Sequence record: OR769032.1
Source of the DNA: Escherichia phage JoYop
Length of the DNA stretch: 64,000 bases
Direction: 5' to 3' (one strand)
The notes beneath the pieces are model-generated. The model searched no databases, was not told where the DNA came from, and saw only the letters and a list, made by a program, of their open reading frames with translations. Positions 32,126-42,260 of this stretch are shown piece by piece (position 1 is the stretch's first letter; each line of letters opens with the position of its first letter). The position numbers and the translations under genes are program-made.

Positions 32126-32428
32126 TTATTTACCTTTAATTACTTTAGCTGCTTCGATAGCCGCTTGCTGAAGGTCATCCATAGACATACCGAATTTAGA
32201 AGCAAAGTTATCAATTTTCTTTTCGACAGCATTCAAAGGCTTGGCCTGTTTACCTTCATTAGCGCCAGGAAGAGCGAGAATACGCTCTTTGTCAATATAA
32301 AGGCTTACAAGTTTCTTACGGTCTTTATCGGACAAATCATGAAATGAATGGGCCTTTTTATTTATAGCGGCTTCTAATTTACCTGCACTCACTCGCGCTT
32401 CAGTAATAAATTCTTGATAGGTTTTCAT
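32126..32428 (-). CDS. ipII: Internal protein II (capsid-targeted)
   Basis: 100 aa starting MKTYQEFITEARVSAGKLEAA, the capsid targeting sequence shared by T4 internal proteins. Confidence 0.7.
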   Translation of the reverse strand: MKTYQEFITEARVSAGKLEAAINKKAHSFHDLSDKDRKKLVSLYIDKERILALPGANEGKQAKPLNAVEKKIDNFASKFGMSMDDLQQAAIEAAKVIKGK

Positions 32429-32468
32429 ATGTTTCCTTTAATGTAAATAGATTTGAGTATTCGTTTTA

Positions 32469-33047
32469 TTAGGAATTACGGGCTGCATTAGCAACGGCGT
32501 AAGCGTACTGAATATTGACGTCTTTAAACGTACCTTTGGAGGTATCTATTTCTGCCTTAAAGCCGCCTTTAGTCATAACATCGGCAAATTCTTTACGGAA
32601 AGCCATTGCATCAAGACCTTTCCATGATGATTTATGCTTAGCAAATTCAAGACCAGCGTAGTTGACAGCCTTAGCTAATTTATTATCAATAACCCATTTA
32701 CCGGCTTTAGGTACAAACACTGGGCCTTTCTGTTTAGAGAATAGTTTTAAATTCCAACGACGAAGGTCACCGTCAGCTTTAACAAAAGCTGCGTCCAAGT
32801 TACTAGCAACAACATCTTGAATATGGCCAAATTTAAGCCCATCAACTTCAATATTTAGATCAGTACGCCAGCGAAGTCCTTCCCAAGCGAAAGCTTTAAA
32901 GTCAGAAGCTTTTGTAGCTAAGTACCGTTCAATAGGAGCCGTTTTAGGGTCAAAGCCGTTTCCCGATCGATAGGTCCACTCATCTTTATTAATGCCTTTG
33001 GCCTTTTCCACAGAAGCTTCAGCGATAAATTCTTTATACGTTTTCAT
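32469..33047 (-). CDS. ipIII: Internal protein III (capsid-targeted)
   Basis: 192 aa starting MKTYKEFIAEASVEKAK; size matches T4 IPIII. Confidence 0.65.
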   Translation of the reverse strand: MKTYKEFIAEASVEKAKGINKDEWTYRSGNGFDPKTAPIERYLATKASDFKAFAWEGLRWRTDLNIEVDGLKFGHIQDVVASNLDAAFVKADGDLRRWNLKLFSKQKGPVFVPKAGKWVIDNKLAKAVNYAGLEFAKHKSSWKGLDAMAFRKEFADVMTKGGFKAEIDTSKGTFKDVNIQYAYAVANAARNS

Positions 33048-33075
33048 GTGTTTCCTTGTTTGTTTTGATAGAGTA

Positions 33076-33105
33076 ATTATACCATATTAATACTTAAGCG
33101 TAAAC
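33076..33105 (-). promoter_or_regulatory. T4-type early promoter
   Basis: Minus strand GTTTAC-(18 nt)-TGG-TATAAT. Confidence 0.55.
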
Positions 33106-33108
33106 TGT

Positions 33109-33369
33109 TTAAGCTTTACCGCCAGAAATAATTCCGAAGTTGTTAAAATCGTATCCAATATCGTCAACATCTACTTTAGGGCTTGCTACAACATAAGCAA
33201 TTTCACTACGTTTTGCATAGGTGTTTATTTCTTTACCATCACCGCCTAGGAAAGAATACCCATTACGTTTTAATGAGCCAAAGTCTTCCGCATCACCAAT
33301 GAAAGCTTTAACTTTAAATTTAGGACCTTTGGCATCTGCTTCAGTGATAAATTCTTGATACATTTTCAT
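33109..33369 (-). CDS. additional internal-protein-like gene with CTS
   Basis: 86 aa starting MKMYQEFITEADAKG. Confidence 0.5.
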   Translation of the reverse strand: MKMYQEFITEADAKGPKFKVKAFIGDAEDFGSLKRNGYSFLGGDGKEINTYAKRSEIAYVVASPKVDVDDIGYDFNNFGIISGGKA

Positions 33370-33375
33370 TTTTCC

Positions 33376-33789
33376 TTAGTAAATTGATTTACCATAGTAT
33401 TTGTACCAAGTAGGACGTTGAGCAATTTTTTCGTCTAAGCGTGCTTGACTTATCGCAATGGACGCTTCGGACGGGACATAATTATTACGAAATTCGGCAG
33501 GGATGTCAGAAATATCCTGGACAGATGTGTCCTTGATTTTGAAACCACGTTTCAAGCATTCGGCGATTAGCTCGATTTGACGTAAACGTAAAAATTCAAG
33601 TTTGTCGTAAAAGAATGTTACATGACCTGTGCCTAAGATAAATGTTGGAGAGATTTTAAAATCCTTTACACGTTTACCGTTTTGAACATGTTTACGGACT
33701 GCACCAAATACGCGTGGTAATTCACGATACTCAGCCATAAGATGTTGGTCGGTCAGTTCAGAAACAAGTGTTAAATTGATACGAGTCAT
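33376..33789 (-). CDS. denV: Endonuclease V (pyrimidine dimer DNA glycosylase) DenV
   Basis: Track start is TTG; from ATG at 33789 the protein reads [35 protein letters not shown]..., recognised as T4 endo V. Confidence 0.9.
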
Positions 33790-33816
33790 AATTTCCTCCA
33801 AGTAGTTGATGAATGT

Positions 33817-33846
33817 ATAGTATCAAAGTCCTTGGAGGAAGTAAAC
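33817..33846 (-). promoter_or_regulatory. T4-type early promoter
   Basis: Minus strand GTTTACT-(18 nt)-TGA-TACTAT. Confidence 0.5.
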
Positions 33847-33847
33847 A

Positions 33848-34129
33848 CTATTTTTCTGAAGCGCCTGAAATATATTTTTCAAGACGTTGTTTCATCAGCG
33901 AGCCGTTCTTAGCGATTTCTTCCGGTTTATCGCACATACGCAACAAAGCTTCAAGCTTAACGATATCACTGGTACGTTCAAATTTGCGAGTATCTATCTT
34001 ACTAGCAAGTTCAGAAATACGTGCTAATAGACTTTCGGCTTCAACCAAAGCTGCACCTAGCTTAGTTGCAAATGTGTCAGTAGCTTCGTTAAGAATAGAT
34101 TCTGATAAAAATTCACTATATGTTTTCAT
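33848..34129 (-). CDS. additional internal-protein-like gene with CTS
   Basis: Track start TTG; ATG at 34129 in ATGA overlap with lysozyme stop; protein starts [16 protein letters not shown]. Confidence 0.5.
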
Positions 34130-35935: not shown

Positions 35936-36309
35936 CGTGATTCCTTAACAAATTTCATAATTTCATCAAATTCATACGCAGCAAGTTTAAGCTGGTGTTC
36001 CTTTTTAATCTTTTTACACTGTGCTTTCCAATCGCGTATGCGTTTACGATAATGTCTTCCTTGATACCAGTATCCTACCCAATTTACAGGTACTAATAAA
36101 AATGGAACTATCATTGGAAGAATTAATGTTGACGCAAATATTATATTAGATTCAATATCAGTCATAACATCTATAACTATTCCAACCCCCAGTAGAATTA
36201 CAAATGATACAGCTATTACAGGACCTATTAATACATCAGTAGAAATTAGCTGGCGCTTTAATTCATACTTCAACGGTTTACTTGGAAGATACATTGATGG
36301 CTTTGACAT
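35917..36309 (-). CDS. two-TM membrane protein (tandem C-motif family)
   Basis: Track start TTG; ATG at 36309; C-terminus KFVKESRCKSQN. Confidence 0.45.
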   Translation of the reverse strand: MSKPSMYLPSKPLKYELKRQLISTDVLIGPVIAVSFVILLGVGIVIDVMTDIESNIIFASTLILPMIVPFLLVPVNWVGYWYQGRHYRKRIRDWKAQCKKIKKEHQLKLAAYEFDEIMKFVKESRCKSQN

Positions 36310-36886
36310 ATTCTCTACATTCCTTAACAAATTTTTCTAATAATAAATCGCTTTCAAAATTAGGATTTTCCACGAATTTATCAAAAAGATCATCAACAAT
36401 GGTTAAAATATTCTTTTTGCTAAGAATACGTTTATTTTCATGCTTCGTTTCAGAATCAACTATAAGAGTAAAGAAATATTTCTTGCCACGAAATTTTACA
36501 GTAGTATCAATATAAAATAAATTTGACTTTTGTAAATTACGTTTAAACCATGCGTCACTTAAACTATAAATGCCAAGATAATCATAATCGTCATTTAAAT
36601 AACAAACTGTCCATTCAGGAGAAATGAAATCAGTAAATTCAACATCAAAATCGCATGTCAATGAATGAATTGATTCAATACTTTTAATGAGTATTCCAGG
36701 ACGTATTAAAGACTTTTTACCTCTACAAAATCTTCCAGAAAGGCTTTCATCAGTTTCATATGAAGACCCCCAATAGTAATTACGTCCTTCTGCCATGCGT
36801 TTAAGAGCATTTAGTAATTGGTCTGGAACATCAACCTGTCTTTGGAACTCTTCAAACATTGAATTGAAATCACTTTGCATTTTCAT
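36278..36886 (-). CDS. hypothetical soluble protein sharing C-terminal motif with the downstream membrane proteins
   Basis: 202 aa; C-terminal LEKFVKECREYVKAIN. Confidence 0.45.
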   Translation of the reverse strand: MKMQSDFNSMFEEFQRQVDVPDQLLNALKRMAEGRNYYWGSSYETDESLSGRFCRGKKSLIRPGILIKSIESIHSLTCDFDVEFTDFISPEWTVCYLNDDYDYLGIYSLSDAWFKRNLQKSNLFYIDTTVKFRGKKYFFTLIVDSETKHENKRILSKKNILTIVDDLFDKFVENPNFESDLLLEKFVKECREYVKAINVSSK

Positions 36887-36906
36887 TCCTATTTACTCCA
36901 AGTAAT

Positions 36907-36922
36907 AGGGGCCGAAGCCCCT
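36907..36922 (-). terminator. GC hairpin (AGGGGC-TTCG-GCCCCT), terminator or RNA structure
   Basis: Perfect inverted repeat in short intergenic gap; no clear U-tract. Confidence 0.3.
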
Positions 36923-36927
36923 TATCA

Positions 36928-37521
36928 TTATTTCAGAGAATTAATGTATTCCTGAACATCGGCAGAGGTGGTTTCAACCCCAGAAATATTACCGTTAAAG
37001 GTTTCAACTCGAGCAAGAGTATCTTCAATATCAACCTTAGTCAGTGCTGCAATTTCAACTACATCATCAGCAGTACTAATTCCAAGGGCATTCGCTGCAC
37101 GAGTTTCACGGATATATTCCAATTTAACTGCAAGTTCTTGGCGAGCATCATCTAACTCAACTACTTTCTTGGCGATTTCAATTCGCATTTCAGCATAACC
37201 ATCAGCTTTAGTAGTTAACTGTTCAGCTGTTCGACGATATAACAAGCCGAGTTTAGCATGCATTGTTACATCTTGACCTTCGGAAAGAAGCTTACGAATT
37301 TCACGCTCTTTTGATTCGGCCTGCTTATTCTTTTCGACAATAAGTTCACGAATACGTTTTTCTTCATTAATAGATTTAACAGAAGCAGTTTTTAGGTCTT
37401 TAATTTTATCAAGTAGTTTTGCTGCTGCAGCAGTATACTGTTCTTCAACAGATAGATTTTTAGCCATAGCAGAACCAAGTTTAGTGCGAATAAACTCAAC
37501 AATTTTCTTCAGTGTGTTCAT
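36928..37521 (-). CDS. PspA/IM30-like coiled-coil protein (tentative)
   Basis: 197 aa, almost entirely heptad-like with A/E/K/R-rich segments reminiscent of phage-shock protein A. Confidence 0.4.
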
Positions 37522-37809: not shown

Positions 37810-38073
37810 TTATTTCATATTATTGAAATATTCTTCTGCGATTTCGTCGTTATCATGGTAAACTTTAGAAGACAGCTTAACATAACCTTCAGCAGTGAAC
37901 ATGTTAATCACAACCTTTACAGTATACCACTGACCGTCTTCATTACCCATTACTGCATAGGTTTCAAACATCGGATGGTCAGGACCGATAACTTTAATAT
38001 CATTCACCGTACGACCAAAATCTTCTGAAACACATTTCATAAAGAAGTTGAACAGTTCACCGTAATTATCCAT
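37810..38073 (-). CDS. hypothetical protein
   Basis: Track start TTG; ATG at 38073 (MDNYGELFNFF...). Confidence 0.45.
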   Translation of the reverse strand: MDNYGELFNFFMKCVSEDFGRTVNDIKVIGPDHPMFETYAVMGNEDGQWYTVKVVINMFTAEGYVKLSSKVYHDNDEIAEEYFNNMK

Positions 38074-38116
38074 TTCGTTCTCCAAGTTGTTTTCTGTATC
38101 AGTAGTTGATAGTTGT

Positions 38117-38146
38117 ATAGTACCACAGAAGAACAGGGATGTAAAC
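38117..38146 (-). promoter_or_regulatory. T4-type early promoter
   Basis: Minus strand GTTTACA-(18 nt)-TGG-TACTAT-ACAACTATCAAC with A/T-rich upstream element. Confidence 0.55.
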
Positions 38147-38284
38147 AGTTTTGTGAAAAAATTTTTAAAAAGTTTTGGGGAATTCTAGGGCAGGGAGGGG
38201 CAATTAAAGGATAGGATAATATATTATAAAGGGTAGAAACTAAATGATGCCTAGAGAGGCCCGGAAAGGCCTAGATATCAAAAA

Positions 38285-38304
38285 CCCCAACCTTTCGGCT
38301 GAGG
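38285..38304 (-). terminator. intrinsic terminator after internal-protein-like gene
   Basis: CCTCAGCC-GAAA-GGTTGGGG hairpin then TTTTTG on minus strand; a second GGCC...GGCC hairpin follows. Confidence 0.5.
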
Positions 38305-38313
38305 CTAAGAATG

Positions 38314-38787
38314 TTATTTGATTTGTTTAGCAGACCAAATGCGGTCTTTAATAATTTTTTGGATGTCTTCAACATACTCAAGAGAGTGAACATGCGGGTT
38401 ATCTTTGAAACTATAAGCACGAGCTAGCTTTTGGCCTTCAGTTTTGATTACTAAAAGCTCTTTAAGGATAGCTTCATATTTGGAAATAATTCCTTTAACA
38501 ATATTTTTCTCTTGTGCGACTTTAGGATCTGCTTTAGGAGCAGGTTTACCTGAAGCTTTTGCAAAAGCAGCTCCAGTAGCAACTAAACTTTTCCAAGCCA
38601 TACTAACTGCATTTCCCGTAAATCCTTCTGCTTTCATATCGCGAGCAAATTGGAATCGCGATTCATCAGAAGCATCTTTATAGGAATATTTACCCGCGGC
38701 AATGGCAGCTTTTGCGACAGCTTGAATTTCGGTGCTAGATGCTTCATTTAACACCGCTTCATTTAAAAATTGAGCATATGATTTCAT
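38314..38787 (-). CDS. additional internal-protein-like gene with CTS
   Basis: 157 aa starting MKSYAQFLNEAVLNEA; Ala/Lys-rich. Confidence 0.5.
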   Translation of the reverse strand: MKSYAQFLNEAVLNEASSTEIQAVAKAAIAAGKYSYKDASDESRFQFARDMKAEGFTGNAVSMAWKSLVATGAAFAKASGKPAPKADPKVAQEKNIVKGIISKYEAILKELLVIKTEGQKLARAYSFKDNPHVHSLEYVEDIQKIIKDRIWSAKQIK

Positions 38788-38838
38788 CTTATTTCCTGTT
38801 TTAATTCGGGGTTTTAATATACTTATTTATACTAAAAA

Positions 38839-38860
38839 GCCCCAACCTTTCGGTTGGGGC
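38839..38860 (-). terminator. intrinsic terminator closing the tRNA/stable RNA transcription unit
   Basis: GCCCCAACC-GAAA-GGTTGGGGC followed by TTTTTAG on minus strand. Confidence 0.6.
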
Positions 38861-38864
38861 TAAG

Positions 38865-39190
38865 CCTTGCGGCAACCTTGTCGGGGTTCCACCTGCTAAG
38901 GCAAGTGTTTGTACGAAACGCCGGGATTCGAACCCGGTTATCAAGCAGTTGACGCTACTCAATATTTTTAAAAGGCCATATCTCGACCATATCCGAACGT
39001 TCCGTCAAAAACGCTACTCGGCTTACGGCAAAGATATTTCCTCGAATCGATAATTCGGTGCGCCGTTTCTGCTGTGATATAAGGGAACATTAACAGATCG
39101 TAAAGATTTGTTAATGCCGGTCCTTAAACAGGGAGCATCAGTCCGACGACTTACCGGTAGCGACCCGGTTTCTTAATATTCTTTTAAAGC
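38865..39190 (-). ncRNA. candidate structured stable RNA(s), tRNA-like (cf. T4 rnaC/rnaD position)
   Basis: 326-bp ORF-free region downstream of tRNA-Arg; contains a tRNA T-arm-like CCGGG-TTCGAAT-CCCGG element and a distant complementary acceptor-like segment about 150 nt apart. Confidence 0.3.
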
Positions 39191-39196
39191 ATCAAT

Positions 39197-39523
39197 TTAT
39201 TCACAGCGTTTACGCCATAAATCAATTGCTTCATAAGCGGATTCAGCATTTCGAATTAGCCGGCATTTATGTAAAGACTTATGATTTTGATATTGTGTAG
39301 ATAATGGAATTGTATCTAAAAGGTCTTTACGATCAAAGTATTCGTAACCATCTAAACCAAATGAACGATTTTTGAGAAATTGCCAATGGCCAAATTCATT
39401 TTCAACATAAACATAATCTGCATGCTGATAAAGCAAATTAATTACGCGTTCAGAAATAACAGTATCATTATGATTAAAATAAAATGTTAAATCATGAACT
39501 ACTAAATAAACATTACCTTTCAT
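39197..39523 (-). CDS. hypothetical protein between tRNA-Arg and the stable-RNA region
   Basis: ATG at 39523 with GAGGAAAAT SD; the longer track ORF overlaps tRNA-Arg. Confidence 0.4.
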   Translation of the reverse strand: MKGNVYLVVHDLTFYFNHNDTVISERVINLLYQHADYVYVENEFGHWQFLKNRSFGLDGYEYFDRKDLLDTIPLSTQYQNHKSLHKCRLIRNAESAYEAIDLWRKRCE

Positions 39524-39541
39524 ATTTTCCTCACTTATAAT

Positions 39542-39618
<77 letters not shown>

Positions 39619-39701: not shown

Positions 39702-39788
39702 TGGTGGGGAGTGATGGAGTCGAACCACCCGAGTCGCAATGACAATGGATTTACAGTCCACACCGCTACCTCTACGGGATAACTCCCC
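39702..39788 (-). tRNA. tRNA-Tyr (anticodon GUA), long variable arm
   Basis: 87 nt; anticodon stem-loop GTGGA-CUGUAAA-TCCAT; variable arm resembles bacterial tRNA-Tyr; D-arm fold less clean. Confidence 0.55.
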
Positions 39789-40306: not shown

Positions 40307-40915
40307 TTATTTATTACGTGAAAAAGACTGTTCTATCAATTCTGGACACTTTCGTTCTATCCATTTTCTAGCTTTTTGTGGGCTTATACCTATTATTTTA
40401 GCAGCTTTACTAACCCATCCAAATTTAGAATAATCGATTTTAACTAATTCTTCGTAAATTTCATCAGTTAAAATCTTTTCATTAATATTTACCAGTAAAT
40501 GATATAATTTATTATCATTAGCAATTTTAATGAATCTTTTATAGTTTCCGCCTTTACTTAAACCTAATGAAGTAATTGCAGATGATATAGTAGCCGAATT
40601 TAATAGTGCGTTTAAAATTTCTTCATCACTAACATTATAACGCTTTTTATTATTTTTAATATTTTTACCAGCAAAAGTATCAGTTTGCGAATGGCAATTT
40701 GGACATAATAATCTTAAATTTGATTTAAGATGATTTTTGTTATTTCCATCAATATGATCTAATTGCAGAACAATATGCTTATTTTGCCATTTTGAAATTT
40801 TACAAATTGCACACTCATATGGAAAAATATTTTCTTTTATTATTTTGTCTTTCAGCTTTCCTGTACTAAAATTTGGATGTTTTCCTTCAAAAATTTCAGC
40901 TAATTTAGTATCCAT
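40307..40915 (-). CDS. HNH family homing endonuclease, free-standing, abutting the tRNA cluster
   Basis: HNH core CAICK...LQLDHIDGNNKNHLKSNLRLLCPNCHSQTD; C-terminal helix-turn-helix-like region; track start TTG, ATG at 40915. Confidence 0.65.
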   Translation of the reverse strand: MDTKLAEIFEGKHPNFSTGKLKDKIIKENIFPYECAICKISKWQNKHIVLQLDHIDGNNKNHLKSNLRLLCPNCHSQTDTFAGKNIKNNKKRYNVSDEEILNALLNSATISSAITSLGLSKGGNYKRFIKIANDNKLYHLLVNINEKILTDEIYEELVKIDYSKFGWVSKAAKIIGISPQKARKWIERKCPELIEQSFSRNK

Positions 40916-41025
40916 AATATAATTCCCAATTATTAACAAAGGCTCTCAAGCAAGAACCCTTGATGATAGAGGGTATTAATCAGTGCGATATGAGTTAATA
41001 ATAACAAATAATTCTTAAAGCATAT

Positions 41026-41951: not shown

Positions 41952-42260
41952 CTATTTTATTCCGCGTGATGCAATTGTATTCTGTCGTTTAACACTAGTT
42001 TGTTTAAAGTCATGATTGTCGATTTGATCGGTACGAGCAACCCCGAATGATGATTTAATCTTAGCTTTAGATCCTTTAGTTATAGAAATAAACATCTCGG
42101 AAGCCCCTTTCTTAAAGTCAGAAGCGATTACTTCAACACCGTTCTTAGCAAGTGACCCCAGAATTGCCTCCGCATACTCATCGTCAAGACTAGCCTGAGT
42201 ATTAATAACGAATGTCTTTGGTGCAACTGCTTCATTGATAAATTCTTTGAAAGTTTTCAT
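41952..42260 (-). CDS. ipI: Internal protein I-like (capsid-targeted)
   Basis: 102 aa starting MKTFKEFINEAVAPK; located just upstream of 57B as T4 ipI. Confidence 0.6.
   Translation of the reverse strand: MKTFKEFINEAVAPKTFVINTQASLDDEYAEAILGSLAKNGVEVIASDFKKGASEMFISITKGSKAKIKSSFGVARTDQIDNHDFKQTSVKRQNTIASRGIK

What the first reader, a model, noticed from the sequence alone, without database searches (positions are those of the whole stretch)
38314..38787. Isolated CTS-bearing gene bracketed by terminators next to the tRNA/stable-RNA region
This 157-aa Ala/Lys-rich protein starts with MKSYAQFLNEAVLNEA (CTS-like) and has strong hairpin terminators on both sides, making it a separate transcription unit. 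It is larger than the small IP-like genes and unlike ipIII in sequence, suggesting a distinct injected cargo protein.
Basis: partly seen in the sequence, partly recalled or inferred. Interest (0 to 1): 0.45.

Follow-up and report, generated by a model that had tools for sequence, protein, structure and literature searches.

The report
Unnamed T4-type internal head protein gene
This is a real, conserved gene of T4-like phages that carries the signal used to load "internal proteins" into the phage head for injection with the DNA; it is an unnamed extra member of that known class, and its target in the host is still unknown.

Summary
The window is a Tequatrovirus (T4-like) genome. On the minus strand, 38314-38787 encodes a 157-aa Ala/Lys-rich basic protein. 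It begins MKSYAQFLNE|AVLNE|A, matching the T4 capsid-targeting sequence at all four experimentally critical positions (Y4, F7, L8, E10). The L-x-E motif cut by the prohead protease occurs twice. Two GAAA-loop hairpin terminators flank the gene as a 30-nt direct repeat 555 bp apart. A T4 late-promoter box (TATAAATA) directly follows the upstream terminator, and this layout is conserved in three genera. T4 lacks the cassette and keeps one hybrid terminator; phage Bas37 has two such cassettes. The family ("RB32ORF132c", phrog_2280) occurs in more than 500 phage records, always as "hypothetical protein". It is under strong purifying selection (dN/dS 0.03-0.14) and is confined to T4-like phages. 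Every full-length member starts with a CTS-like leader. The mature part matches no IPI, IPII, IPIII, Pfam family or solved structure. A 98%-identical homologue was detected by mass spectrometry in purified Yersinia phage fD1 particles, though that list is unspecific. The Bas37 homologue is dispensable. Best reading: an undescribed internal, injected protein, probably anti-defence. It is a new member of a known kind.

The parts
38833..38861 (-). Upstream intrinsic terminator (10-bp stem, GAAA loop, T-run). It ends the tRNA/rnaD/rnaC transcription unit and is copy 1 of the flanking direct repeat (38835-38864).
   Evidence: -20.6 kcal/mol, z -3.75; family D6; annotated as a terminator in Kha5h.
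38824..38831 (-). T4-type late promoter box TATAAATA, 36 nt before the ATG and directly after the terminator T-run.
   Evidence: The same hairpin, T-run, TATAAATA layout is conserved upstream of homologues in Tequatrovirus, Dhakavirus and Jiaodavirus while the surrounding sequence diverges.
38792..38797 (-). Ribosome-binding site AGGAAA, at -10 to -5 from the ATG.
   Evidence: Read from the sequence. The other CTS genes of the window have the same AGGAAA-type site (D1).
38314..38787 (-). Coding sequence: 157 aa plus stop, 17.3-kDa precursor. Family RB32ORF132c / phrog_2280.
   Evidence: dN/dS 0.03-0.14 in this frame.
38743..38787 (-). Codons 1-15: capsid-targeting leader MKSYAQFLNE|AVLNE| with two L-x-E prohead-protease (gp21) motifs. 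Predicted disordered.
   Evidence: pLDDT below 50 for residues 1-15; CTS rules from PMC9026906.
38563..38742 (-). Codons 16-75: conserved helical N-domain (core motif AGKYSYKDASDESRFQFARDMKAEGF). It is shared by all family members across genera.
   Evidence: pLDDT 80-90, helices 18-30, 41-53 and 59-71.
38506..38562 (-). Codons 76-94: basic Ala/Lys/Pro-rich flexible linker. Its composition, not its sequence, is conserved in distant homologues.
38317..38505 (-). Codons 95-157: C-terminal helical hairpin ('type A' domain, ...IIKDRIWSAKQIK). It is almost invariant in Tequatrovirus and Dhakavirus and is replaced by an unrelated 'type B' domain in Klebsiella and Yersinia phage homologues.
38278..38306 (-). 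Downstream intrinsic terminator, starting 8 nt after the stop codon. It is copy 2 of the flanking direct repeat (38280-38309).
   Evidence: -15.2 kcal/mol; D6.
38309..38863 (-). The 555-bp present/absent cassette: one repeat copy, the late promoter and the ORF. T4 lacks it and keeps a single hybrid terminator.
   Evidence: RB51 annotators' note: 'flanked by 34 bp imperfect direct repeat'.
38912..39175 (-). Context: stable RNAs rnaC and rnaD, immediately upstream in transcription order.
   Evidence: 92% alignment to T4 rnaC/rnaD; Kha5h rnaC annotation. No Rfam family matched.
37810..38145 (-). Context: the next gene downstream, e.8, with its own early-type promoter (GTTTACA ... TACTAT).

Best explanation
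The gene encodes an additional, so far unnamed internal head protein of the T-even type.

Proposed course of events:
1. Late in infection the gene is transcribed from its own TATAAATA late promoter. Hairpin terminators on both sides insulate it from the tRNA/stable-RNA unit upstream and from the early gene e.8 downstream. This step is inferred from conserved motifs.
2. The 17.3-kDa precursor is carried into the assembling prohead core by its N-terminal capsid-targeting sequence. This is inferred from sequence identity at the positions shown experimentally to matter in IPIII.
3. The prohead protease gp21 removes the leader after Glu10 and/or Glu15 (L-N-E|A occurs twice). This would leave a basic, Lys/Ala-rich mature protein of 15.5-16 kDa made of a helical N-domain, a flexible basic linker and a helical hairpin. 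This step is inferred.
4. The protein stays in the DNA-filled head. A near-identical homologue was found in purified fD1 particles, which supports but does not prove this.
5. It is ejected with the DNA into the next host, where it can act before any phage gene is expressed. This is inferred by analogy with the other internal proteins.

Its most likely job is to neutralise a host defence that attacks the incoming modified DNA. T4 Ip1, Ip2 and Ip3 each block a distinct GmrSD type IV restriction enzyme, and Bas37_0260 blocks McrBC. The conserved N-domain and the swappable C-domain suggest one part is generic and the other gives target specificity.

I put about 0.8 on 'CTS-targeted, head-packaged protein' and about 0.4 on 'anti-restriction or anti-defence effector'.
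For: CTS and cleavage motif:
- Y4, F7, L8 and E10 match the positions that control targeting (4, 7) and processing (8, 10) in IPIII. gp21 cuts after L/I-x-E.
- Every full-length family member, down to about 30% identity, starts with the same kind of leader. Examples: MKTYNEFLTE, MKFKEFLAE, MLKFNEFLAE, MINFSDFLNE, MKSFSSFLNE.
- The CTS-coding 5' end is one of six copies of a repeat family whose other five copies start the window's other CTS-bearing ORFs, among them ipII, ipIII and the ipI-locus protein.

Composition:
- A 16.6%, K 13.4%, pI 9.5, compared with processed T4 IPI, IPII and IPIII at A 13-17%, K 13-16%, pI 9.0-9.65.

Expression signals:
- A late promoter box follows the terminator and is conserved in three genera.

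Real gene:
- dN/dS is 0.03-0.14 with dS up to more than 1.
- There are 511 phage records with a match.

Particle association:
- The fD1 homologue g140 (98% identical) is 'PPAP' at the strict LC-MS/MS threshold in purified particles.

Accessory status, as for other internal proteins:
- It is absent from T4 and from Klebsiella phage ValerieMcCarty03.
- It is dispensable in Bas37: 29 of 34 transposon sites were hit, with no fitness change in strains CFT073 or CFE299.
- The same intergenic site holds 0, 1 or 2 CTS genes in different phages.

Functional precedent:
- PMC12373910 and the HIDEN-SEQ preprint.
Against: - No experiment shows processing, internal location or ejection for this protein.
- The fD1 particle list also contains MotA, Ndd, DenV, NudE, topoisomerase and 672 host proteins. 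Detection there therefore proves expression and co-purification only.
- Transposon mutants of the Bas37 homologue showed no host-specific defect in the two clinical strains I checked, so no target is known.
- The protein is much more conserved (very low dN/dS, syntenic across genera) than expected for an arms-race inhibitor, and more so than IPI, IPII or IPIII. That fits a generic role at least as well.
- Fold searches gave only generic helical hairpins.
- TATAAATA is not enriched in the window as a whole (13 found against 10.5 expected). The promoter call rests on position and conservation.
Confidence: 0.62

Rival explanations
1. The protein is packaged but has no specific host target. It would be a generic DNA-associated 'filler' that neutralises charge, helps DNA condensation or ejection, or shields DNA ends inside the head and on entry.
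For: - The mature protein is basic (net +8), with 20 Lys against 4 Arg, and has an AKP-rich linker.
- Solid-state NMR of T4 found only the Lys residues of internal proteins contacting DNA phosphates (review PMC3012670).
- Purifying selection is very strong and the gene is syntenic across genera.
- No host-specific phenotype was seen in HIDEN-SEQ.
Against: - The gene is dispensable and absent from T4 and from some Jiaodaviruses.
- The folded domains, with an almost invariant C-terminal hairpin and a precisely conserved N-domain motif, suggest specific binding rather than bulk charge.
- Every internal protein with a known function so far is a specific inhibitor.
Confidence: 0.18
2. The protein is not packaged. 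It would be a late cytoplasmic protein whose CTS-like N-terminus came from recombination with ip genes, and its detection in fD1 particles would be contamination.
For: - The 5' end is mosaic. RB27 and LYE-01 differ almost only in the leader, so leaders are exchanged by recombination.
- The fD1 list is unspecific.
- At DNA level this CTS copy is the most divergent of the six (67% to the reference).
Against: - The leader is kept, with the four critical residues, in all family members across at least five genera despite about 30% identity elsewhere. A passively acquired, functionless leader would decay.
- In T4 the 10-residue CTS alone is sufficient to package foreign proteins (PMC9026906).
- The late promoter fits prohead assembly timing.
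Confidence: 0.1
3. The protein is a prohead core or scaffold accessory that helps head assembly and is then degraded by gp21 and expelled, like gp67 and gp68, rather than being delivered to the host.
For: - It has a CTS-type leader, late expression signals and a helical, coiled-coil-like C-terminal hairpin.
- There is one further internal L-x-E motif (L-K-E at residues 108-110).
Against: - It is non-essential, with no fitness cost on K-12.
- Peptides were found in mature fD1 particles.
- It has only one internal L-x-E site, and that lies inside a predicted helix, whereas core proteins are cut into many fragments.
Confidence: 0.06

Closest known systems
T4 internal proteins IPI, IPII and IPIII (Ip1-3)
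   Same: All share an N-terminal capsid-targeting leader of the MK(T/S)(Y/F)xxF(I/L)xE|A type with a gp21 L/I-x-E site. All are small, basic, Ala/Lys-rich proteins, are non-essential, and sit in hypervariable accessory loci. The RBS-plus-CTS DNA segment is a shared repeat.
   Different: - The mature part has no detectable sequence similarity to them.
- It sits at a third locus (the e.8/rnaC gap), not at the ipI or ipII-ipIII loci.
- The only promoter-like signal I found directly upstream of it is the late box. The ipIII and ipI-locus genes of the window have early-type promoters upstream, while ipII and the 86-aa and 93-aa CTS genes do not.
- It has a duplicated cleavage motif.
- It is far more widely conserved: Tequatrovirus, Dhakavirus, Jiaodavirus, Muldoonvirus and others.
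- Its target is unknown, whereas Ip1-3 inhibit distinct GmrSD enzymes.
Bas37_0260 and the alternative internal proteins of T-even phages (Ip4 onward; Repoila et al. 1994, which I could not read here)
   Same: These are CTS-bearing proteins that share only the leader with IPI-III and were recognised by that leader. Bas37_0260 is a McrBC inhibitor.
   Different: They lie at the ipI locus. The present family lies next to rnaC and, in the literature I could search, has never been called an internal protein. It is annotated only as 'hypothetical protein' in every record listed out of the 511 with a match.
bas37_0243, the second CTS gene at the same site in phage KarlGJung/Bas37
   Same: It occupies the same intergenic hotspot, has a CTS leader (MKTYAEFLTE|A), lies between the target homologue's terminator and a terminator of its own, and is helical and basic.
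   Different: It is unrelated beyond the first 11 residues. It was scored 'essential' in HIDEN-SEQ, while the target homologue bas37_0244 is dispensable. It is not present in the window.
PeSL-type mobile regulatory cassettes of T4-type phages (Arbiol et al. 2010; recalled from memory, not read here)
   Same: In both, a small accessory gene is bracketed by repeated regulatory stem-loop sequences that can mediate gain or loss by recombination. Here T4 has the exact one-repeat 'empty site'.
   Different: Here the repeats are intrinsic terminators and the promoter is a late one, not an early promoter plus stem-loop. The repeat occurs only at this site in the window.

Membership tests
T-even internal (injected) head proteins, IP class | N-terminal capsid-targeting sequence. 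In the IPIII CTS, residues 4 and 7 govern targeting. | tested here: met
   The protein starts MKSYAQF, with Y4 and F7. The rule comes from PMC9026906. These positions are conserved as Y/F4 and F7 across the whole family.
T-even internal (injected) head proteins, IP class | A gp21 prohead-protease site L/I-x-E at the end of the leader (residues 8 and 10). | tested here: met
   L8-N-E10|A is followed by a second L13-N-E15|A. The motif is present in all homologues. Actual cleavage has not been shown.
T-even internal (injected) head proteins, IP class | A small, basic, Lys/Ala-rich mature protein. | tested here: met
   The mature protein is 15.5-16 kDa with pI 9.5-9.6, A 16.6% and K 13.4%. It has the highest Ala+Lys of 94 ORFs in the window. 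T4 IPI*, IPII* and IPIII* have the same profile.
T-even internal (injected) head proteins, IP class | Synthesis at the time of prohead assembly (late transcription). | tested here: inconclusive
   A TATAAATA box lies 36 nt upstream and is conserved in three genera. This is a motif only; no transcript data exist, and the motif is not enriched window-wide.
T-even internal (injected) head proteins, IP class | Physical presence in mature virions. | tested here: inconclusive
   The fD1 homologue g140 (98% identical) is listed as a particle-associated protein at the strict LC-MS/MS threshold. The same list includes many non-structural phage proteins and 672 host proteins. The Jiaodavirus proteome (ValerieMcCarty03) is uninformative because that phage lacks the gene.
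T-even internal (injected) head proteins, IP class | Removal of the leader in the virion and ejection into the host with the DNA. | not testable with these tools
   This needs N-terminal or semi-tryptic mass spectrometry of purified heads and an injection assay.
T-even internal (injected) head proteins, IP class | A non-essential accessory gene in a variable locus. | tested here: met
   The gene is absent from T4 and from ValerieMcCarty03. The site holds 0, 1 or 2 CTS cassettes in different phages. bas37_0244 is non-essential in HIDEN-SEQ.
IPIII / IPII / IPI protein families (homology) | Sequence similarity of the mature domain. | tested here: not met
   With the leader removed, BLASTP gives nothing better than E = 0.15. 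The PHROG family (phrog_2280) differs from the internal-head-protein PHROG.
Injected inhibitors of type IV (GmrSD/McrBC) restriction | Binding and inhibition of a modification-dependent nuclease, with rescue of restricted T-even phage. | not testable with these tools
   This rests only on analogy with Ip1-3 and Bas37_0260. Mutants of the homologue showed no fitness effect in K-12, CFT073 or CFE299. No structural similarity to IPI* or any inhibitor was found.
Repeat-bounded mobile gene cassette (PeSL-like) | Flanking direct repeats of a regulatory stem-loop, with an 'empty site' carrying one repeat in relatives. | tested here: met
   There is a 30-nt repeat, 90% identical, 555 bp apart. The single T4 terminator is a hybrid of the two flanks.
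Repeat-bounded mobile gene cassette (PeSL-like) | An early promoter as part of the repeated element, and multiple dispersed copies in the genome. | tested here: not met
   The promoter is of the late type and lies inside the cassette, not in the repeat. The repeat sequence occurs nowhere else in the 64-kb window.

The most novel reading that the evidence does not exclude
The e.8/rnaC gap is a third, previously unrecognised internal-protein locus of T-even phages. Terminator-bounded, late-promoter-driven CTS cassettes are gained and lost there by recombination. The family found here would be the most widely conserved injected protein of the Tevenvirinae: a modular effector with a constant N-domain and interchangeable C-terminal domains. 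It would disarm a conserved enterobacterial defence or host factor of a kind not yet linked to internal proteins, that is, not a GmrSD or McrBC nuclease.
Probability: 0.25. Interest if true: 0.65.

Novelty: new member of a known kind. Interest (0 to 1): 0.42.

Why it matters
Every T-even internal protein whose function has been solved so far (Ip1, Ip2, Ip3, Bas37_0260) is a pre-made, injected inhibitor of a host nuclease that attacks modified phage DNA. An uncharacterised protein with the same delivery signal is therefore a ready candidate for a new anti-defence activity. This one is present in hundreds of therapeutic-type coliphages and in Klebsiella, Yersinia, Serratia and Cronobacter phages. 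It is also a natural example of how the CTS 'address label' is spread among unrelated cargo genes. In practice, the gene should be annotated as a putative internal head protein instead of 'hypothetical protein' (it is not even called in the Kha5h record). The dispensable 555-bp cassette is also a convenient site for engineering packaged cargo.

Tried and rejected
- Pfam, NCBIfam and PDB sequence searches gave nothing significant. PHROGs gave only an unknown-function family.
- The AlphaFold2 model (pLDDT 73.6, pTM 0.45) was searched against BFVD and PDB. It returned only its own homologues and generic helical hairpins such as CHMP4B, seryl-tRNA synthetase arm and designed bundles. I do not read any function from these. 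The afdb50 library was unavailable.
- The profile search of 1.84 billion representatives found only 13 relatives, all of which look phage-derived by sequence and leader (seven were traced to T4-like phage genomes), with no bacterial or functionally annotated ones. Two short hits (P0012, P0014) look like chimeric contigs and were ignored.
- Homology of the mature part to IPI, IPII, IPIII, the other CTS proteins of the window or bas37_0243 was rejected.
- Literature searches by gene names and accessions (RB32ORF132c, RB51ORF140, YP_002854093, ar1_137) found nothing relevant. Repoila et al. 1994 is not held. The supplements of Silas et al. 2025 contain no protein sequences to match.
- The fPS-65 paper contains no proteomics. 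The Jiaodavirus virion proteome (ValerieMcCarty03/04) was a dead end because ValerieMcCarty03, the genome I checked, has the cassette deleted.
- The plus-strand ORFs overlapping the gene (38444-38683 and 38311-38427) were rejected as coding. Selection acts on the minus-strand frame, and the published proteomic and annotation evidence refers to that frame.
- Window-wide enrichment of TATAAATA was rejected as an argument (13 found against 10.5 expected). Only position and cross-genus conservation are used.

Full report
**1. What is in the sequence**

The window is a T4-like (Tequatrovirus) genome. The 2.1 kb around the finding is 96.6% identical to phage Kha5h and matches 785 phage records. The ORF is on the minus strand at 38314..38787. 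It has an ATG start and encodes 157 aa beginning MKSYAQFLNEAVLNEASS.

The protein has 16.6% Ala and 13.4% Lys, with pI 9.5. That is the highest Ala+Lys content of 94 non-overlapping ORFs in the window. The ipIII homologue is second and the ipI-locus internal protein third.

Two minus-strand hairpin terminators bracket the gene:
- 38861..38838: -20.6 kcal/mol, GAAA loop, T-run.
- 38306..38283: -15.2 kcal/mol.

**2. The leader is a genuine capsid-targeting sequence**

The review PMC9026906 summarises the experimental work on IPIII:
- The first 10 residues suffice for packaging.
- Residues 4 and 7 carry the targeting information.
- Residues 8 and 10 control processing.
- gp21 cleaves after L/I-x-E.

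The protein here has Y4, F7, L8 and E10, followed by Ala. A second L-N-E|A lies five residues later.

A strict CTS pattern scanned across all six reading frames hits five places and a looser pattern adds a sixth. All six are ORF starts:
- ipII (32126-32428)
- ipIII (32469-33047)
- an 86-aa ORF (33109-33369)
- a 93-aa ORF (33848-34129), which also has a double motif ([10 protein letters not shown])
- the target
- the ipI-locus protein (41952-42260; phrog_2667, 'internal head protein')

The repeat finder independently groups the six ribosome-site-plus-CTS DNA segments into one repeat family. The target copy is among the most divergent, at 67% identity to the reference (D1).

**3. Transcription signals**

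Between the upstream terminator and the ATG, the minus strand reads GGGGCTTTTTAG-TATAAATA-(36 nt, including AGGAAA)-ATG. From established knowledge of T4, TATAAATA is the late-promoter consensus.

The motif is not enriched in the window as a whole (13 found against 10.5 expected). At this locus, however, the layout hairpin, T-run, TATAAATA is invariant upstream of homologues in:
- RB51, fD1, Bas37, RB27 and LYE-01 (Tequatrovirus)
- PSD2002 (Dhakavirus)
- phiKp_22 (Jiaodavirus)

In these phages the hairpin stems and the spacers differ. The ipIII and ipI-locus genes and e.8 have early-type GTTTAC...TAnnAT promoters instead.

The gene is therefore predicted to be a separate, late transcription unit. 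It lies between the tRNA/rnaD/rnaC unit and the early gene e.8.

**4. A present/absent cassette at a hotspot**

T4 has e.8, then 285 bp, then rnaC, with no gene in between. T4 aligns to window 37810-38308 and 38829-39173. A 35-bp stretch of T4 matches both places.

The single T4 terminator has the 5' flank of the window's upstream copy and the 3' flank of the downstream copy. The two window copies are a 30-nt repeat, 90% identical, 555 bp apart. The RB51 annotators had noted a '34 bp imperfect direct repeat'.

Other phages show more states of the same site:
- Bas37/KarlGJung carries a second, unrelated CTS gene (bas37_0243, MKTYAEFLTEA...). It lies between the target homologue's downstream terminator and a terminator of its own, upstream of e.8.
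- In Jiaodavirus, phiKp_22 has the gene in the same syntenic place.
- ValerieMcCarty03 has it deleted, with end points at the late promoter and the downstream hairpin.

Synteny (after the tRNA/stable-RNA cluster, before e.8) holds in RB27, PSD2002, LYE-01 and Serratia phage PS2. An ancestral gene repeatedly lost by recombination between the repeats, as in T4, fits better than a recent insertion.

**5. The protein family**

tblastn finds the protein in 511 phage records. It is labelled 'hypothetical protein' or equivalent in every record listed there, and in Kha5h it is not called at all. It belongs to phrog_2280, of unknown function. It has no Pfam, NCBIfam or PDB match.

A profile search of 1.84 billion representative proteins finds only 13 relatives. 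None carries a functional annotation, and those I could trace come from T4-like phages. All full-length ones begin with a CTS-like leader, even at about 30% identity.

The architecture is modular:
- Leader.
- Conserved helical N-domain (AGKYSYKDASDESRFQFARDMKAEGF).
- Basic AKP-rich linker.
- One of at least two unrelated C-terminal domains. Type A is found in the E. coli phages. Type B is found in the Klebsiella and Yersinia phage homologues and in a distant relative of untraced origin (P0017).

AlphaFold2 gives a disordered leader, a helical N-domain at pLDDT 80-90, a floppy linker and a long helical hairpin. Fold searches are uninformative.

dN/dS is 0.03-0.14 within Tequatrovirus and Dhakavirus, with dS up to saturation. 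The gene is therefore real and strongly constrained, the C-terminal half above all.

RB27 and LYE-01 are nearly identical (dS 0.07) except in the leader (MKTYAQFL----MTEA against MKSYAQFLNEVVLNEA). This shows the 5' end is exchanged by recombination.

**6. Experimental evidence from the literature**

Yersinia phage fD1 g140 is 98% identical to the target. Table S3 of PMC8309999 lists it as a particle-associated protein at the strict threshold, and notes that T4 expresses no similar protein. That list also contains MotA, Ndd, DenV, topoisomerase and 672 host proteins. It therefore shows expression and co-purification, not internal location.

In the HIDEN-SEQ preprint on Bas37 (10.1101/2025.11.20.689424):
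- The homologue bas37_0244 is non-essential, with 29 of 34 TA sites hit.
- It shows no fitness change in CFT073 (log2FC -0.11) or CFE299 (-0.30, p = 0.51).
- Bas37_0260, a CTS protein at the ipI locus, inhibits McrBC.

Silas et al. 2025 (PMC12373910) showed that T4 Ip1, Ip2 and Ip3 each block a different GmrSD type IV restriction enzyme.

**7. Interpretation**

The best-supported reading is an additional internal head protein. It would be made late, targeted to the prohead core by its CTS and trimmed by gp21 after Glu10 and/or Glu15. It would then be kept with the DNA and ejected into the next host.

What supports each step:
- Shown by sequence: the leader, the cleavage motif, the composition and the late-promoter signals.
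- Supported only weakly by published proteomics: particle association.
- Inferred: processing and ejection.

By analogy with all solved internal proteins, an anti-defence role against a nuclease that attacks incoming modified DNA is the most likely function. I hold this at about 0.4. The unusually strong conservation and the lack of a host-specific phenotype so far fit a more generic DNA-associated role almost as well.

Three rivals are listed with their tests: a generic DNA-binding filler, a protein that is not packaged, and a transient core component.

**8. Comparison and novelty**

By the defining leader, cleavage motif, composition, accessory status and locus behaviour, the protein belongs to the T-even internal-protein class. 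It is not a homologue of IPI, IPII or IPIII.

Neither the family nor the locus is described as an internal protein in anything I could search. The kind of thing is well known, so this is a new member of a known kind.

It is of moderate interest, mainly as a ready candidate for a new injected anti-defence activity. It is also evidence for a third ip locus built from terminator-bounded cassettes.

Noticed in passing
window 32126-34129 (minus strand): The window carries six CTS-bearing genes against three in T4. The order is e, a 93-aa CTS ORF (33848-34129, whose start overlaps the stop of e by 4 nt), denV, an 86-aa CTS ORF (33109-33369), ipIII, ipII. The ipIII-ipII pair therefore lies on the other side of denV compared with T4 (e, ipIII, ipII, denV). 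The Kha5h record calls the 93-aa protein 'hypothetical'. The 93-aa ORF has the same doubled cleavage motif ([10 protein letters not shown]) as the target.
   Followed up: partly
L007 1315-1878 (phage KarlGJung/Bas37, bas37_0243), next to the target homologue: A second, unrelated 187-aa CTS gene occupies the same e.8/rnaC gap. HIDEN-SEQ scores it 'Essential' (1 of 48 TA sites hit, mean counts about 0.2). That is odd for an accessory gene missing from T4 and from this window. It may counter something present in all strains used, or insertions there may be toxic or polar.
   Followed up: partly
window 36278-37521 (e.5 and e.6 homologues); Bas37 bas37_0239/0240: In HIDEN-SEQ the e.5 and e.6 homologues are strongly required in uropathogenic strain CFT073 (log2FC -3.6 and -6.5) but not in CFE299. 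Several records label e.6 'host specificity protein'. These two genes of unknown function lie 0.8-2 kb from the finding.
   Followed up: no
window 40307-40939 (minus strand): A 210-aa ORF with an HNH-type motif (…LDHIDGNNKNH…CPNCH…) starts immediately after tRNA-Leu. Kha5h has tRNA-Gln at this position, and ARAGORN finds no tRNA-Gln in the window. It is probably a homing endonuclease inserted at the edge of the tRNA cluster.
   Followed up: no
window 39197-39571 (minus strand): A 124-aa ORF (phrog_3355, unknown function; 'RB51ncORF141c' in RB51) sits between rnaD and tRNA-Arg, where T4 has no gene. Its listed TTG start overlaps tRNA-Arg, so the true start is probably further downstream.
   Followed up: no
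L012 4410-4768 (Klebsiella phage ValerieMcCarty03) compared with L005 3900-4600 (phiKp_22); protein P0013: Jiaodaviruses show the same present/absent polymorphism, with deletion end points at the late promoter and the downstream hairpin. P0013 looks like an internal-deletion derivative that fuses the N-domain to the downstream intergenic region and the next gene.
   Followed up: partly
window 38245-38280 (minus strand): A second stem-loop (CUAGGCCUUUCCGGGCCUCUCUAG) directly follows the downstream terminator. It is conserved in RB51, fD1, RB27 and LYE-01 and is present in a weaker form in T4. Its role is unknown.
   Followed up: no
window 39702-39788: ARAGORN calls tRNA-Tyr here, but it scores only 30.2 bits against the Rfam tRNA model (threshold 29). 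The other eight tRNAs score 59-73 bits.
   Followed up: no
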